Made by a program: the position numbers and the translations under genes. A model generated the notes under the pieces. It saw nothing but the letters and a program-made list of their open reading frames with translations, ran no database searches and was not told the origin of the DNA. A stretch of DNA of 59,589 nt, the filler included, from Pirum gemmata (taxonomy: Eukaryota), in NCBI GenBank assembly GCA_002812295.1. It is 10 parts of 10 records of this genome, joined end to end, with 100 filler letters (N's around TTAATTAATTAA, not from the genome) between each part and the next. Parts side by side here need not be neighbours in the genome. Positions count along the whole stretch, not along the records: positions 10,942 to 16,317 come from PDIN01000581.1; 9 more parts are not named here. One strand, given 5' to 3'. Of this stretch, positions 13,533-40,382 are shown one piece after another (position 1 is the stretch's first letter; every line of letters starts with the position of its first letter).

Positions 13533-13699
13533 ATGTCCACTGTTATTGATGTACTAACAATCGAAAGCAACTTACAAAAGGTGATTAATGATGTCGATGA
13601 TCATTTTTCCAAATCTTTCTCAACTTCTATTGAAGGTATGCAATTTGACAACGTTCTTGAAAACAACAACAACAACCGCAATAATAGCATCAATAGCAG

Positions 13700-13762
<63 letters not shown>

Positions 13763-15030
13763 GGACGATGATGATGATAACAATTATATCAACAATAAAA
13801 TTAATAGTTTAAGTGAATGTAATCTCAACTATACTAACAGTGAAAGGGAATTGTATTGTGATGAGTCTAATGACGAAATCCTTGATTCTGATAATGAAAC
13901 AATAGACTCCGAACCTCAAAGAGTTAAAGCAATGCAAATTAATCGCAGTAACAGCAACAACAACAACAGTGATAAAACTACTACATTCAGAAGATCACCC
14001 TCGGTGAAAGTGTCTAGATCAAAATCACTCAACCGTTCTCCATCTCCATTCTTACCTTTACGTAAGCGTAATTTACCCTTATCTTTTTGGAAACCTAGGA
14101 TTAGACGTCATACTATTTCTACTGAAGTAACCAACTTCCAACCATCTTTTGATTCTAAAAAGCCCGAAAACCCTACAAAGAAACCCCACATTCATACCAT
14201 CCCCTCTACCAATGCAACAGTAGCAATAACAAAAGTTAAACCAAACATTCCCTCACTGATCAAAACCGACACTTTTATTACTTCCACTAACCCATCACCA
14301 TCACCATCACCATCAACATTGTCATCATTATCATCAACATCATCATCATCATCACCATCAACATCACCATCACCATCAACATCAACATCACCATCACCAT
14401 CACCATCACCATCACCATTATCACCACCATCAACCGTATCACCACTTCCACCCCCACGAACCCCTACGCATCGAACCCTCCCTGTTCGCTCAGTTTCTTG
14501 CAAGCGATTAAATTCAAGCTCAAACTCGATTACCTGCAAAAAGGTTAGTGTTTTAAGACGTTACAGTGTAGGGGGTGGTTCACCGATAACATTATTCGAT
14601 TCTTTATTGAACAAAAGTGGCTCGATTTCTTCAATTTCTAAATCACCTACTCGATCATTTCTCAGTAGCGTTCCTTCCTCTCTACCAGAGTTAAACAACA
14701 CAAATGATGTTATTATACCAACTTTTAGTCATAATAATAATAATAATGATAACATAAATAGACCGCATACTAATTCTCAAGAACATGGTATATTTGATAT
14801 TGAGAATAATAATAATGACATGAGTAATAATGTAGTTGTTAAGTTGGGCTCTTTGATGGATTTAGAAGGCATTGGATCTGACACTGATGCTTTTGATGAT
14901 AGTGATGGAGATAATGATGAAAACGATATTGAAGAAAATAGTACTGACGAATGTTATAATTCAGATGTTGGTAGTATTGATGTAAAGCCGAAAACCATTG
15001 ATAGTAGTAATATGTATGATGATAATAACT

Positions 15031-15066
<36 letters not shown>

Positions 15067-15242
15067 GTGAAAATTGTAATTCCCCACAACTTGGTCTCTC
15101 ACCTCGTTCTGTCGACCCTTTGATCACCAATAATAGTCATAATGATAACCAACACAATACATTGTATTCACATTCTCTTGATAGTATCGTAGAGTTTGGT
15201 ACACAAAATAACAACAACAACTGTAATAGTAACAACAACAAC

Positions 15243-15276
<34 letters not shown>

Positions 15277-16250
15277 TTGATGATAATGATACTGATAATG
15301 ACAGTGACAGTGACCTTAAATTAAAACGTGGTCAATCAATTGATTCGTTTGTGTCTTCTCGTAAGTCACCAAAACCCTGTAGACGTGTTGGTCGTAATTT
15401 ATTTTTACAGTATCTTGATGACCAACAACAGCAACAAACCCAACAACAAAAAGATGAATTAGCATCACTAAATAATAATAATAATGAAAATTATAATGAT
15501 CAAATTGTTAACGATAATAATAATAATCATAATAATAATAGTGATATCAACTATGATAATAATAATAATAGTAATGATAATAGTGATATTAATAATGATA
15601 GTGATAATGATAATAGTAATAGTGATAATGATAACAATACTGATAATAATAATAATGTTATTGTTACTAGCGAAAATATTAATAATGTTATTGTTAATAA
15701 TAATAATAATAGTAATAATAATAATAATGCCAATAATAATGATAATGAAGTAGAAAACAACAGTAGTCACAATAATCATTATAATACAGATAACTATTTC
15801 AGTGATAGTGCTCTTGATTTTTCTAATAGTGAAAGTAATAGCAACCATAGCCTTTTTGAGGACAATTTTTTAGAATCATCCTGCTCTTCAAGTTGTGACG
15901 ATAGTATGGACATTGATGATCCTGAACAATTCTACTATAATCATGATAACAATAATATCAATGACAATAACAATAACAAATATAATAATAATAATAATAA
16001 TAATAAGGATAACAATAACAATAATAATAATAATAATAATAATAATGATAGTAATAATAGTAAGACTAATTCATTTGGGTTGCGTTTTAATAATAATAAT
16101 AATAGTGAGAGTGAGCTTAATTCTTTTTCTTTGGGGTTTTCACTTTCTTGTGAGGTTTTTTGTCCGGAGCAAAATAGTTACGGGGCTTCTTTACTTGATC
16201 CTTGGGATGTAAAAGATTCTCATTATGATTTACTAGACATTTGTTCTTGA
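13533..16250 (+). CDS. 905-aa Asn/Asp/Ser-rich disordered protein with Vestigial-like (Tondu) helix and TEAD-binding omega-loop motif
   Basis: Uninterrupted ORF with AAAATG start. aa21-29 VDDHFSKSF and aa174-188 LPLRKRNLPLSFWKP; the rest is low complexity. The CDS is secure; the function is inferred. Confidence 0.85.
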
Positions 16251-17595
16251 TATTATATATAGTGGTAATAACATGAATAATAATAATAATAATAATCAAT
16301 AATATTAATTAATAATANNNNNNNNNNNNNNNNNNNNNNNNNNNNNNNNNNNNNNNNNNNNTTAATTAATTAANNNNNNNNNNNNNNNNNNNNNNNNNNN
16401 NNNNNNNNNNNNNNNNNAAAAATAAAAAAAAAAAAAAAAAAAATATTAATTTTATAATGTTCATACTATGTTCATCCTAATTTAATAAAATAAATATAAT
16501 ATTATATCGCACAATTTTATACATTTGTCGCAAAAAGTGTCTATAATATATATAAATCATATAGCATAACTGACAGGCATATCTATAAATTAGTTAATTA
16601 GCAGTTAATTAATTTTAAAGACCCCTTGAGAGTTGAGGCATAATGCATTGATACTATGATGCGTATCAATATTATAAAAAAAAAAATGCTAACCAAATTA
16701 TTATTTTAAAAACTGGCCATTGGTTCATAATAGGCAACTTCTAGAACAAGCTATTTATTTATATAATATAAATATATCATTTTTTGATAAAAAAATAGGG
16801 ATTTCTCTCGATCAGTTTGCAATCTGGTTGGGTGTTGTTTGCAAGTATTCTAAGCCTCAAGTTTACAAAACTTTTACAAATATAATTTAGAATAGAAATA
16901 ATCTACAATTATTGGTGGGAAAAAAGACAAAGAACGCCTGAAAAAAAAAAAAAAAAATAATATTTGGTTCGATCTCAAGATTCTCAACACCTAACAACCA
17001 AAAAGAACCAAAAAGGTGAGGCAAGACGCTGGCAAGACCGTGCCAAGGGCCCAAGACGCTGCTGCGCTGATGAGACTCTGCTAGATCTAGAGTCCAACTT
17101 CTGAGTCCAACTTCCCAGACCAAGAAAGAAAATACAGACAAAATCCAATGAAAAGTCACCTTGGAAATTAATGACGATCTCAAAATCTCTCAAAATGAAA
17201 ATCACTGACAAATTCCATAATGATGAGAAAAATGATGGTGATAGGCTTGGTAGCTAAAATAGTTGCTTAAAAAATCAATTTGTTTCCAGCCATTTGTTTA
17301 TAAACAGATCAGAACAGATCAGTGAACACAGATGTCAGCTCCTTTGTCAGTAATTTCACATTCGAATAATATGTCATGTCAAGGGGTAGATAGGCGGTAT
17401 TTGACCGGAAATTAACGTCAAGGGGTAGGTAGCCTAAGGTAGGTAGGCGGTATTTGAAGCAGTATTTGACCGGAAATTGGCGTTACACAGTATCCCAGAA
17501 ATTAACGTCAAGGGGTAGGTAGCCTAAGGTAGGTAGGCGGTATTTGAAGCTGTATTTGACCAGAAATTGGCGTTACACAGTATCCCAGTAACCCT

Positions 17596-28073: not shown

Positions 28074-29597
28074 TTATCTTTGACGTATAGTTGATGCTGT
28101 TGCTGTTGTTGTCGTTTTGAGTCCTTGTTTCTGATATGGCTGCTTGTTTTGAAATTGTGGTTGTACTGATACTGTTTGCGTTTGTTGGGGTATTGTTTTG
28201 TTTTGTTGTTGCATTTGTAAAAACTGTAACATTTGCATTTGCATATGGGGTTGCTGGGCCCTCAACTGTAGCAATTGCAATTCTAATTGCATTTTCTGAG
28301 TTTCTAATTGTAATAGTTGTATTTTTTTATCAACATCGATGGTTTCTTGACCTTTCTTTTTTTGTTGCTGATGATAGGGAGGTAATTTATGTTGTTGATT
28401 TACATGAGTTGAATTTGATTTTGATTGTTGACTTTGTTGTTGTTGTTGTTGTTGTTGTTGTGGCTGTGGTCGTGGCTGTGGATGTGGATGTGGATGTGGA
28501 TGTGCTTGTGCTTTTGACCGTGGTTGTTCTTTTGTGTTTGGTTGTGTTTGTGTTTGTGTTTGTGTTTGTGTTTGTGTTTGTGTTTGTGTTTGTGTTTGTG
28601 TTTGTGTCTGCTTTCCAGTTGCTGTTGTTGGGTTTGACTTTCCTTCAAACATTGTGCTTAAAGCTAATAATAATTTCGCAAATATCCGCATATCAGTTTT
28701 ATTTTCTAACGAGAATGTTAACGACTTTTGCTTGTACATCCCTTTGACATTCACTTTATTAGTCTTTTCACATACCATTATTGAACCTTCTTCTGCATTA
28801 AAGTTTGGTGGGAATAGAAAATCGAAATCATAAGAATTTTCTGTACTTATTTTACTATTCCGTTTAATATAATAAATACTTTTGCTAGTGATTATATTAT
28901 AATGGCCAGAACGTTTTCCACAGGGTGCAATAAATAATAAACTTTCAAAATGTTGTATTTTTTCCAGACCCCAAGCTATATTTTCTATTTCCCCATATGG
29001 ATTCGCTTTGTAATTTAAAATCAGCTCTGCATAGTTTGCTGTAGATAGCGATTGTGTTATAACTGTTGTACTTGTTGGACGTACGACTTGTGAATGCGAC
29101 CGGTTACGTGCATGGCATTGTTGTGATAAATTTTGTGATAGTGACCTTTCTTGATTTTGTTGGCTTACTTTTGGTTCTGGTTCACGTTTTGTTTGCTGCA
29201 AAGAAAGCAGTATTTTAACCAAAGGTAGTATTTCATTTACACCCACGCTGAATTTATAAAGTCGGTCTGTATACACTCCTCTAATGATAACTTTATTACG
29301 CTTCTCGTTAATAATAAGATTAGTTTCTGATCCAGTCTTTACTGGTGGTAATAGAAATTCAATATCGTAAGAATTTTCCACTGTAATAGTTTTACTACTC
29401 TTTTTTATGAAATAAATTGAATGATCTGTTATTAAATAGTATTCGTTGCTTTTTTCACTAGAGCACGTGACCAAGAGTATATTTTCATGGTTAGGAAGTA
29501 TAGTTTTTGCCCATTGTAAATTTTCGCTTTTTCCGTAAGGTTGATTTTTGTAGTATGATATACATTGGGGAAAATTCAATGCAGATTCAATAGACAT
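28074..29597 (-). CDS. 507-aa hypothetical protein: two tandem ~125-aa homologous domains plus QT/HP/Q-rich tail with coiled coil
   Basis: Intact intronless ORF; repeats YKNQPYG..ENLQW..ENILL..YYLIT..SIYFIK..ENSYDIEFLLPP and YKANPYG..ENIAW..ESLLF..YNIIT..SIYYIK..ENSYDFDFLFPP. Confidence 0.85.
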   Translation of the reverse strand: MSIESALNFPQCISYYKNQPYGKSENLQWAKTILPNHENILLVTCSSEKSNEYYLITDHSIYFIKKSSKTITVENSYDIEFLLPPVKTGSETNLIINEKRNKVIIRGVYTDRLYKFSVGVNEILPLVKILLSLQQTKREPEPKVSQQNQERSLSQNLSQQCHARNRSHSQVVRPTSTTVITQSLSTANYAELILNYKANPYGEIENIAWGLEKIQHFESLLFIAPCGKRSGHYNIITSKSIYYIKRNSKISTENSYDFDFLFPPNFNAEEGSIMVCEKTNKVNVKGMYKQKSLTFSLENKTDMRIFAKLLLALSTMFEGKSNPTTATGKQTQTQTQTQTQTQTQTQTQTQTQPNTKEQPRSKAQAHPHPHPHPQPRPQPQQQQQQQQQSQQSKSNSTHVNQQHKLPPYHQQQKKKGQETIDVDKKIQLLQLETQKMQLELQLLQLRAQQPHMQMQMLQFLQMQQQNKTIPQQTQTVSVQPQFQNKQPYQKQGLKTTTTATASTIRQR

Positions 29598-32701: not shown

Positions 32702-32727
32702 GTAAGTTTCATNAGTGTATGTTATAC

Positions 32728-38402: not shown

Positions 38403-40382
38403 TTATACGAGGATAGGTTCAAATTGTAATGCTAATGGTGTACGTACAGGTGCTGCTATACCAAACAAGCGTACAACCCCATCACCAGCACAGAGGGTAG
38501 AAACCGTTTCTTCTTTGGATCCTATTGCACAAATTACAGCTTTATTCCAATTATCAGCCCCATATACACTACCACTCATATCAATATTAATGTCTGTTAA
38601 TTTTTGTATACCCGGAACTTGAAAAGGTTTGCCGATAAATGCTCCTGTTCTTTTTCTTCCCATTGGACAATGTTGTACATTAGTTCCGCATACATGGTGG
38701 ATCGATGAACCACTAAAATCCGCAACCCAAACCATATCGTTTCCATCTACAGCAATTCCCCAAGGACCATTCATATATTTTAAATCGTGAAATTGATCGA
38801 TTAAAGTACCGTTTGGTGCATATAAAAATATTCCCCGGCCACCCCAAGATGCAACCCAGGCATGACCTGTAGAGTCAATGGCAATACCCCTACTATTGGC
38901 ACCGAGTTTATCCATAGTGAAATTTTCGTAGTTAGAGGTATTCACTTTAGTAACAAATGAACCCTGTTTTTCAGAATTTCTGAAAGTATAAGAAAATGTA
39001 CCATTAAGACTGCTAATCCATAAACTTCCCTCTTTGTCAATTGCTAAGCCAAATGGATGTTCCACAATACATTCATTACCTACTCTTGAAGTTTCATTTC
39101 TGCAAACAATTTCTGCCTTGTTACCATCCCCATTAGGAATAAAAACAATTTGAGAATTGGTAGTGTCTGCTACCCATAAGTTGCCTTTAGCATCAGAGAC
39201 AATAGATTGTAAACTTCCCAAAGTACCATTCATATTATAACCAGTTTTTTCAGGAGAAAGTGCCTTTCCGTCTTTAGACAAATGAGATATAGATTTTCCA
39301 CCCCAGTTAGAAATCCAAACGCTATCATCAGGTGCTACAGCAATACCAAAACCAGCAGCATCAATTCCACCACCAACAAAACCTGCGACTTCTGGCGATA
39401 AGGCTTTACCAGAAGCATCAAGTTTACTTGCTCCGTGCGATGGCACCGCATTAAAAAGAGTGGATTGGGAACCAAGAAGAAAGTTGTTGTTTGACCATAG
39501 GTTACCATGTCTGTCAAAATCAATTCCACCTGGACTGTTTATTCCTCCACCAGTGTATTTAATACCAATCGACCATTCTTGGGGTGCATAAAAGCGCATA
39601 CGTGGTTGATAATATGATTGCAATTTTTTAACAATAAATTCTTCTAGTTCGTATAATAATATAACGTGTCTCCAAGGATTTCTAGCGATATGACTTAGAG
39701 AATCAACCACACTTCTACCATCGACAGCCAGTTCAAATAATATATTACAAGCGTTAATAATATTCATTTTATAACCATCTCCTGGTAAGAATTTTACTCC
39801 TGAAACACAACCTGAAACTACATTAGCTAATGAATTGAACCTAGCTAAATTGGTAGTCATTCGGCCATTTTCGTAGCGTGAAAGAACATAACCGGTATAA
39901 CCTGTACTTATATTAACTAGATTTTCTACACCACTTACGGCTACTTTGACAAAAAGTGGTATACCTTGGTAGTGTTGTTTTTTTACATTCCAAAATTGGG
40001 CTAATGCAGAAGTAGTGGCGACTGTTGTCAGTTCATTGATGGTAATATGTTTAACTGAAGGGGAATGGGTCCATGCGGTTATTAAATTTGCCCCATTGGG
40101 TACTGGATGGGTTTTATTCAAAAAGCCAGAGCCTTTTTCTGTAATAGCGTACATAGTATCGTTTTCGGCAATTTCGAATTCGTTCACTTTGGCAGTAAAG
40201 TGGCCAAAAAGGTCAGTTTTGGCGTGGCCAACACGAATAGCATTGTTAAATTTGACAACGTATACATTAACATACGCTTCTTTTACAGTTTTATCATAAG
40301 TTTTTACCAAGCCGTTAAGTTGAAAGGCGCTAACTACACTGGCAATAATTGACAACGTGGCTAAATTAATAATCATTTTCAT
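38403..40382 (-). CDS. Secreted NHL-repeat / Vgb-like beta-propeller protein of bacterial type (659 aa)
   Basis: Signal peptide (MKMIINLATLSIIASVVSA); INELTTVA..ALAQF N-domain; ~7 repeats of P.GIA(V/I)D..G.(L/V)W; C-terminal GIAAPVRTPL; intronless. Confidence 0.88.
   Translation of the reverse strand: MKMIINLATLSIIASVVSAFQLNGLVKTYDKTVKEAYVNVYVVKFNNAIRVGHAKTDLFGHFTAKVNEFEIAENDTMYAITEKGSGFLNKTHPVPNGANLITAWTHSPSVKHITINELTTVATTSALAQFWNVKKQHYQGIPLFVKVAVSGVENLVNISTGYTGYVLSRYENGRMTTNLARFNSLANVVSGCVSGVKFLPGDGYKMNIINACNILFELAVDGRSVVDSLSHIARNPWRHVILLYELEEFIVKKLQSYYQPRMRFYAPQEWSIGIKYTGGGINSPGGIDFDRHGNLWSNNNFLLGSQSTLFNAVPSHGASKLDASGKALSPEVAGFVGGGIDAAGFGIAVAPDDSVWISNWGGKSISHLSKDGKALSPEKTGYNMNGTLGSLQSIVSDAKGNLWVADTTNSQIVFIPNGDGNKAEIVCRNETSRVGNECIVEHPFGLAIDKEGSLWISSLNGTFSYTFRNSEKQGSFVTKVNTSNYENFTMDKLGANSRGIAIDSTGHAWVASWGGRGIFLYAPNGTLIDQFHDLKYMNGPWGIAVDGNDMVWVADFSGSSIHHVCGTNVQHCPMGRKRTGAFIGKPFQVPGIQKLTDINIDMSGSVYGADNWNKAVICAIGSKEETVSTLCAGDGVVRLFGIAAPVRTPLALQFEPILV

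What the first reader, a model, noticed from the sequence alone, without database searches (positions are those of the whole stretch)
13533..14096. Candidate Vestigial-like TEAD cofactor (Tondu helix + omega-loop) in a protist-like genome
Seen: two short motifs inside an otherwise low-complexity 905-aa protein, VDDHFSKSF (aa21-29, nt 13593-13619, preceded by a hydrophobic strand-like VIDVLTIE) and LPLRKRNLPLSFWKP (aa174-188, nt 14052-14096). Known: the Vg/VGLL Tondu helix is VxxHFxxAL (VDEHFSRAL; VGLL4 VDDHFAKAL). The TEAD-binding omega-loop is PMRLRKLPDSFFKP in YAP and PMRKRxLPASFW in FAM181, and Vg/VGLL2 use strand-helix-omega order. Inference: both interfaces in the correct order, with no visible WW domain, suggest a Vg-type TEAD partner. 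This family is generally treated as animal-specific, so it would push the module back if the host is unicellular.
Basis: partly seen in the sequence, partly recalled or inferred. Interest (0 to 1): 0.88.

Follow-up and report, generated by a model that had tools for sequence, protein, structure and literature searches.

The report
Vestigial-style TEAD partner in a protist
A single-celled relative of animals, Pirum gemmata, encodes a long low-complexity protein carrying both short docking motifs that the animal growth regulator Vestigial uses to grip the TEAD transcription factor, so it likely is a TEAD partner and would suggest that this docking design is older than animals.

Summary
The host is the ichthyosporean Pirum gemmata: a named EukProt model matches the window at 295 of 296 residues. 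The omega-loop is solid: Pfam TEADIR3, 29.4 bits against a cut-off of 26, with all five YAP hot-spot positions kept or conservatively changed. The helix keeps V, H, F and the VGLL-typical Lys (V21, H24, F25, K27); 30 of 20,000 shuffles reach that. Against: no Pfam hit for the helix, Leu and Met hot spots replaced, a 144-residue acidic linker (12 in Vg, 27 in VGLL2), no orthologue found, expression not shown, host TEAD and binding not testable here. The premise 'animal-specific' is weak: a paper already calls the Tondu domain premetazoan (citing a paper I could not read), and WW-less helix-plus-omega proteins are published for choanoflagellates, but with a YAP-type LxxLF helix. What looks new is a His-type (VxxHF) helix together with an omega-loop outside animals. 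Verdict: probable two-site TEAD cofactor that works like Vg/VGLL2; membership of the Vg family is not shown.

The parts
13533..16250 (+). Single-exon ORF, 905 aa, mostly low-complexity (poly-N, poly-D, S/P-rich); candidate TEAD cofactor
   Evidence: GC3 0.22, like other host ORFs (0.22-0.26)
13542..13562 (+). Hydrophobic stretch aa4-10; possible interface-1 beta-strand, doubtful
   Evidence: single-sequence AlphaFold2 puts aa7-33 in one helix at low confidence
13572..13619 (+). Amphipathic helix aa14-29; carries VxxHF (V21, H24, F25) with K27 and F29, and a second, weaker register L14xxV17I18 two turns earlier
   Evidence: helical moment reached by 52 of 20,000 shuffles; hot-spot mapping; comparison by eye
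13620..14051 (+). 144-aa linker, 42 D/E, with a D/E run at aa57-82
13636..13905 (+). Possible in-frame 270-nt intron (only donor-like site between the motifs); would shorten the linker to 54 aa; unproven, low odds
   Evidence: run X2 (kind unknown) has one contig across 13780-14290
14052..14096 (+). TEAD-binding omega-loop (interface 3), aa174-188
   Evidence: Pfam TEADIR3; only PDB hit is the FAM181A peptide 6l9f_C, E 0.025
13983..14162 (+). Basic, Ser-rich patch around the loop (aa151-210, net +13) with several RxxS/T sites; possible nuclear signal and phospho-switch (inference)
15747..15968 (+). Acidic-aromatic stretch aa739-812, of the composition of acidic activation domains (criterion recalled)
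10942..16317 (.). The gene's own scaffold; neighbours beyond the N-padded spacers are not linked
   Evidence: shares interspersed repeats with the PP1 scaffold

Best explanation
The protein is likely a two-site cofactor of a TEAD/Scalloped transcription factor in Pirum gemmata: its omega-loop (aa174-188) is predicted to fill TEAD's interface-3 pocket and its N-terminal VxxHF helix (aa21-29) the interface-2 groove, as in fly Vestigial and human VGLL2. The two weak sites would add up through a long, flexible, acidic linker. It has no DNA-binding domain, no WW domain and no HxRxxS motif, so it would not be switched off by Warts/LATS in the Yorkie manner; it would compete with Yorkie-type proteins for TEAD and most likely bring its own acidic activation region (aa739-812). 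Shown: ORF, motifs, host, profile match of the loop, absence of WW/HxRxxS/PPxY/LxxLF. Inferred: expression, a host TEAD with a YAP-binding domain, binding at either site, activation.
For: Loop: TEADIR3 above cut-off on short pieces; L176/R179/L181/S184/F185 sit at YAP's hot spots M86/R89/L91/S94/F95; 10 of 14 residues equal to the loop of S. rosetta XP_004994687.1 and 9 of 14 to M. brevicollis A9UXI0, with the same SFWxP ending (by eye); 9 of 12 equal to the Capsaspora Yorkie loop, whose peptide binds human TEAD weakly, IC50 about 107 uM. Helix: V21/H24/F25 = R1-R3, K27 = the Arg/Lys two after the Phe that marks VGLL and not YAP/TAZ, F29 hydrophobic at R4; 30 of 20,000 shuffles for VxxHFx[RK], 4 of 20,000 with a hydrophobic R4; strongly amphipathic. 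Order helix then loop as in Vg/VGLL2. Scalloped is reported to predate opisthokonts and to be present in Capsaspora and Monosiga.
Against: No Pfam family on aa1-40 or three other N-terminal pieces and no VGLL peptide among the 6 PDB hits of aa1-36. R4 Leu is Phe and the Met40 position is Asp; the isolated VxxHF helix is too weak without its strand, and the strand here is doubtful. Linker 144 aa against 12 (Vg) and 27 (VGLL2), and the longer VGLL2 linker already lowers affinity. Full-length TEADIR3 score is under the cut-off. No relative of the loop region among proteins of 30-1584 aa or among 1.84 billion representatives (two unrelated repeat proteins), so conservation is not shown. RNA evidence is lacking. 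The relaxed R4 class in the shuffle test was chosen after seeing the sequence.
Confidence: 0.55

Rival explanations
1. It binds TEAD through the omega-loop alone, like FAM181A; the VxxHF helix is a coincidence or binds another partner.
For: FAM181A binds at interface 3 only and is the sole PDB match; the helix has no profile support; 144-aa linker; bare VxxHF appears in about 2% of shuffles.
Against: The helix also keeps the VGLL-typical Lys and a hydrophobic R4 (0.15% and 0.02% of shuffles), lies upstream of the loop, and is one of the few complex segments of the protein.
Confidence: 0.2
2. It is a divergent member of the WW-less, YAP-type helix-plus-loop proteins known from choanoflagellates; interface 2 would be filled by L14xxV17I18 (a worn LxxLF), not by VxxHF.
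For: The loop is closest to the choanoflagellate loops. By eye aa10-19 share I, E, L, K and N (5 of 10) with the S. rosetta LxxLF helix, and the hydrophobic stretch aa4-10 lies at a comparable distance before it.
Against: The Phe at R3, the most conserved and most critical residue (about 400-fold loss on mutation), would be Ile; no LxxLF in the protein; the choanoflagellate linkers are short; the comparison is post hoc and by eye.
Confidence: 0.1
3. The ORF is unexpressed or the motifs have no TEAD function: a chance or decayed match in a repeat-rich, low-complexity gene.
For: No orthologue; neither the ORF nor six shorter starts are in the protein collection although it holds Pirum models; the RNA-guess run X3 did not lay on 13780-14290.
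Against: 905 open codons at about 30% GC with host-like GC3; a strict loop pattern is expected about 1e-4 times per 10 million residues (pattern partly fitted); Pirum annotation is reported as partial; X3 holds 0.61 of the sampled words of 13400-14290.
Confidence: 0.1

Closest known systems
Drosophila Vestigial and human VGLL2 (beta-strand : VxxHF helix : omega-loop; PMC7566471)
   Same: VxxHF helix with Arg/Lys two after the Phe, followed by an omega-loop with Trp at the YAP Phe96 position (as in Vg); no WW domain
   Different: Linker 144 aa instead of 12 or 27; Phe for the R4 Leu, Asp for Met40; strand doubtful; no Pfam match for the helix; unicellular host; 905 aa
WW-less choanoflagellate proteins S. 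rosetta XP_004994687.1 and M. brevicollis A9UXI0 (PMC7784741, section 3.5 and Fig. S6)
   Same: Unicellular holozoan, no WW, low-complexity, helix then omega-loop; loops 10 of 14 and 9 of 14 identical by eye, same SFWxP ending
   Different: Their helix is YAP-type LxxLF and lies close to the loop; I saw no VxxHF in either printed sequence (0 of 2)
Capsaspora Yorkie (coYki; PMC9170242, PMC7784741)
   Same: Very similar omega-loop (9 of 12 residues)
   Different: coYki has tandem WW domains and four HxRxxS motifs; this protein has none of either
FAM181A/B and PERCC1 (PMC9710580)
   Same: Omega-loop of the TEADIR3 family, no WW, variable and sometimes long linker (54 aa in FAM181B)
   Different: No LxxLF, no FAM181/PERCC1 N-terminal Pfam match; those families are described from animals
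VGLL4/Tgi (PMC12922143)
   Same: Acidic-acidic-HF helix core; Tondu domain said to be premetazoan
   Different: One VxxHF instead of two; VGLL4 has no omega-loop

Membership tests
Vg/VGLL1-3 | VxxHF helix (R1-R3) | tested here: met
   V21, H24, F25 (definition)
Vg/VGLL1-3 | Arg/Lys two residues after the Phe | tested here: met
   K27
Vg/VGLL1-3 | Leu at R4 and hydrophobic residue before R1 (Met40 of mouse VGLL1) | tested here: not met
   F29 (conservative) and D20
Vg/VGLL1-3 | Conserved beta-strand before the helix (24-aa Tondu domain) | tested here: inconclusive
   Vg strand region maps to aa7-16; only aa7-10 are strand-like; low-confidence model shows helix aa7-33
Vg/VGLL1-3 | Match to a curated Tondu profile | tested here: not met
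   No Pfam family at E up to 10 for 4 of 4 N-terminal pieces; HMMER filters drop weak matches, and I did not confirm the Tondu models with a positive control
Vg/VGLL2 subtype | Omega-loop downstream of the helix | tested here: met
   TEADIR3 aa174-188
Vg/VGLL2 subtype | Short linker (12-27 aa) | tested here: not met
   144 aa, 54 if the candidate intron is real
Vg/VGLL (all) | Binding to TEAD/Scalloped | not testable with these tools
Vg/VGLL (all) | Common descent (orthologues, tree) | tested here: inconclusive
   No relatives found to align
VGLL4/Tgi | Two tandem Tondu motifs | tested here: not met
   One VxxHF in the protein
YAP/Yorkie | WW domain(s) | tested here: not met
   Two Trp only, no Pfam WW
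YAP/Yorkie | HxRxxS LATS/Warts motifs | tested here: not met
   0 found
YAP/Yorkie | LxxLF helix | tested here: not met
   0 found; L14xxV17I18 is at best a worn version
FAM181/PERCC1 | Interface-3 motif | tested here: met
FAM181/PERCC1 | Conserved N-terminal helix region | tested here: inconclusive
   No Pfam match outside the loop; no family alignment was available to test directly

The most novel reading that the evidence does not exclude
This is a true Vestigial-lineage cofactor in Ichthyosporea: the His-type Tondu helix joined to an omega-loop, so far described only for arthropod Vg and vertebrate VGLL2, goes back to the root of Holozoa, and the unicellular ancestor of animals already had two competing classes of TEAD cofactor (YAP-type LxxLF and Vg-type VxxHF), both with an omega-loop.
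Probability: 0.3. Interest if true: 0.75.

Novelty: new variant of a known kind. Interest (0 to 1): 0.5.

Why it matters
TEAD in animals is steered by cofactors that compete for the same surface. PMC7566471 explains the loop-bearing Vg as the ancestor of VGLL1-3 within animals, and PMC12922143 places the single Tondu domain in bilaterians with the VGLL4 type as ancestral. A VxxHF helix plus omega-loop in an ichthyosporean would push the Vg-style design, and Hippo-independent competition for TEAD, before the split of animals from their unicellular relatives, or show that it can be re-invented from two short motifs. Either is testable with two peptides and a TEAD domain. It would also be an apparently unannotated gene and a cofactor with a far longer linker than those described in the papers read.

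Tried and rejected
Word-indexed homologue searches with aa158-200: 4 candidates at 497-1584 aa and 5 at 30-496 aa, none scoring; proteins above 1584 aa were not searched, nor was the helix region. HMMER search of a 44-aa loop piece over 1.84 billion representatives: 2 hits, both unrelated tandem-repeat proteins; a 15-residue motif cannot reach significance at that scale, so this is weak. ESM Atlas on aa1-200 and aa1-40: no usable hit. A degenerate pattern for a TEAD motif gave 80 metagenome loci, 41 with an intact YAP-binding domain by pattern; 24 of 41 were aligned (Pfam YBD confirmed on one; profile hits TEAD/Scalloped chains). I read them as animal TEADs without a tree; they say nothing about Pirum. 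Single-sequence AlphaFold2 of aa1-200: mean pLDDT 51.9, uninformative beyond a helix at aa7-33. RNA support: run X3 did not lay on 13780-14290 apart from a 31-base repeat (a filter can leave records out, so no proof of absence); the 5' part was not examined on reads. Neighbouring genes as context: rejected, the window is a padded chain of short scaffolds. A TACTAAC-AG site at about 13833 as acceptor: rejected, not in frame with the only donor-like site. Metazoan contamination: rejected. Earlier scan findings: nothing relevant. Papers not held: PMC3406323, PMC3705890, PMC6954708.

Full report
Observation. The ORF 13533-16250 (+) encodes 905 aa. Both motifs translate exactly at the stated coordinates. 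The protein is low-complexity apart from a few short segments, has two Trp, no PPxY, no LxxLF and no HxRxxS. Runs X1 and X2, of two studies, each hold 13780-14290 in one contig without a difference; X1 may be the source of the assembly. GC at third positions is 0.22, like four other host ORFs at 0.22-0.26.

Host. The window is a chain of mostly 5.4-kb scaffolds joined by N-padded spacers, so neighbours are not linked. A PP1 exon on another scaffold found P0020 at 98% identity, the other 119 of 120 listed hits at 64-89%. P0020 is EP00122_Pirum_gemmata_P017808 and matches the window at 295 of 296 residues, including a spurious ClpX-PP1 join. The gene's scaffold shares interspersed repeat families with that scaffold. 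Pirum gemmata is an ichthyosporean; its assembly is described as AT-rich, fragmented and partly annotated (PMC5560861, passages). The host is therefore unicellular. The gene itself seems to be missing from the annotation: neither the ORF nor six shorter starts are in the collection and the loop region found no self-hit at 30-1584 aa.

Omega-loop. Pfam TEADIR3 matches aa174-188 with 29.4 bits on a 44-aa piece and 26.1 on aa1-240 (cut-off 26), 24 on the full length. The only PDB hit is the FAM181A peptide (E 0.025). YAP's hot spots M86, R89, L91, S94, F95 (PMC10146773 section 4) map to L176, R179, L181, S184, F185; W186 stands at F96 as in Vg. By eye the loop equals that of S. rosetta XP_004994687.1 at 10 of 14 and M. 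brevicollis A9UXI0 at 9 of 14 positions (supplement passages of PMC7784741), and the Capsaspora Yorkie loop at 9 of 12. This part is convincing as a motif.

Helix. The published VGLL signature is V(R1)xxH(R2)F(R3), Arg/Lys two after the Phe, Leu at R4, with help from Met40 and a preceding strand. The protein has V21, H24, F25, K27; R4 is Phe and the Met40 position is Asp. Shuffles of the whole protein give VxxHF in 416, VxxHFx[RK] in 30 and the pattern with a hydrophobic R4 in 4 of 20,000 (the last class was relaxed after seeing the sequence). aa14-29 is amphipathic beyond all but 52 of 20,000 shuffles. But no Pfam family matched 4 of 4 N-terminal pieces, no VGLL peptide was among 6 PDB hits, and such a pattern alone would occur some 20-70 times in a 10-million-residue proteome. 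Its weight comes from lying upstream of a true loop. The strand is doubtful: the Vg strand region maps to aa7-16, and a low-confidence model shows one helix over aa7-33. A second register, L14xxV17I18, resembles the choanoflagellate LxxLF helix by eye but lacks the key Phe.

Linker. 144 aa with 42 D/E, against 12 in Vg, 27 in VGLL2 (PMC7566471, main text parts 1-4 of 7) and 54 in FAM181B (PMC7784741 section 3.5). The longer VGLL2 linker lowers affinity, so cooperation between the two sites would be modest. One donor-like site and one in-frame acceptor could remove 270 nt and leave 54 aa; the stretch is open reading frame and RNA reads were not seen, so this is only a lead.

Mechanism. Most likely a two-site TEAD cofactor without DNA-binding or WW domain, outside direct Yorkie-style LATS control, competing for TEAD and carrying an acidic-aromatic stretch (aa739-812; criterion recalled) that would suit activation. 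Motifs and absences are shown; expression, a host TEAD, binding and activation are inferred. Scalloped is reported as older than opisthokonts and present in Capsaspora and Monosiga (PMC4761220, passages); I found no statement for Pirum.

What is known. Premetazoan Yorkie-TEAD is established (PMC9170242 and PMC4032125, passages). WW-less proteins with an LxxLF helix and a loop are printed for two choanoflagellates; I saw no VxxHF in either. PMC12922143 (passages) says the Tondu domain has a premetazoan origin, citing Koontz 2013, and treats the two-motif VGLL4 type as ancestral and the single domain as bilaterian; Koontz 2013, Sebe-Pedros 2012 and the FAM181 paper were not held and Simon 2016 was not tried, so an earlier report of a unicellular Vg-like protein cannot be excluded. 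PMC9710580 (parts 1-2 of 3 and supplement legends) treats YAP, FAM181, PERCC1 and Vestigial interfaces as related; its alignment figures were not visible. Searches (listings) showed no report of a VxxHF-plus-loop protein in a unicellular organism; (Tgi, VGLL4, Capsaspora) returned none. Term searches in PMC7035326, PMC4739763, PMC11286789 and two preprints added nothing.

Verdict. Real motifs in a confirmed unicellular relative of animals. Works like Vg/VGLL2 with probability about 0.55, TEAD binder of some kind about 0.85; membership of the Vg family by descent about 0.3 and not shown, since several defining features failed or could not be tested. New variant of a known kind; interest 0.5, 0.75 if the ancestral-Vestigial reading holds.

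Noticed in passing
window, spacers at 5380-5479, 10842-10941, 16318-16417 and onward; single N at 32713: The window is a padded chain of short scaffolds (44 N, a 12-base all-frame-stop core, 44 N). The EukProt model Pgem_evm2s16687 is a chimera of ClpX-like 5' exons and a PP1 3' exon across the join near 32713 (the ClpX label is my reading of the sequence).
   Followed up: yes
window 54543-59390 (+): Intron-rich TAO-family Ste20 kinase with a coiled-coil tail; one exon matches only TAO3/TAO2 among kinases in PDB (E 1e-5). TAO kinases act upstream of Hippo in animals (recalled). Different scaffold, so not linked.
   Followed up: partly
window 38403-40382 (-): Intronless 659-aa ORF with signal-peptide-like start and NHL/SGL/Vgb-lyase-like beta-propeller matches; looks bacterial in type, possibly horizontally acquired.
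   Followed up: no
window 49560-53240 (-): Intronless 1226-aa ORF without Pfam or PHROG match and not in the protein collection; C-terminal part has a duplicated motif; perhaps from a mobile element or virus.
   Followed up: partly
window 28074-29597 (-): Intronless 507-aa ORF with an internally duplicated domain of about 130 aa and a Q-rich tail; no convincing Pfam match.
   Followed up: no
window 15393-15404 (+), aa621-624 of the candidate: RNLF next to an SP site resembles the cyclin-docking motif of p21/p27-type proteins (recalled, not tested); 24 S/T-P sites in the protein.
   Followed up: no
supplement Fig. S6 of PMC7784741: The unicellular omega-loops share Leu at YAP Met86 and, in the choanoflagellates and Pirum, an SFWxP ending; this could serve as a search pattern for more unicellular TEAD partners.
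   Followed up: no
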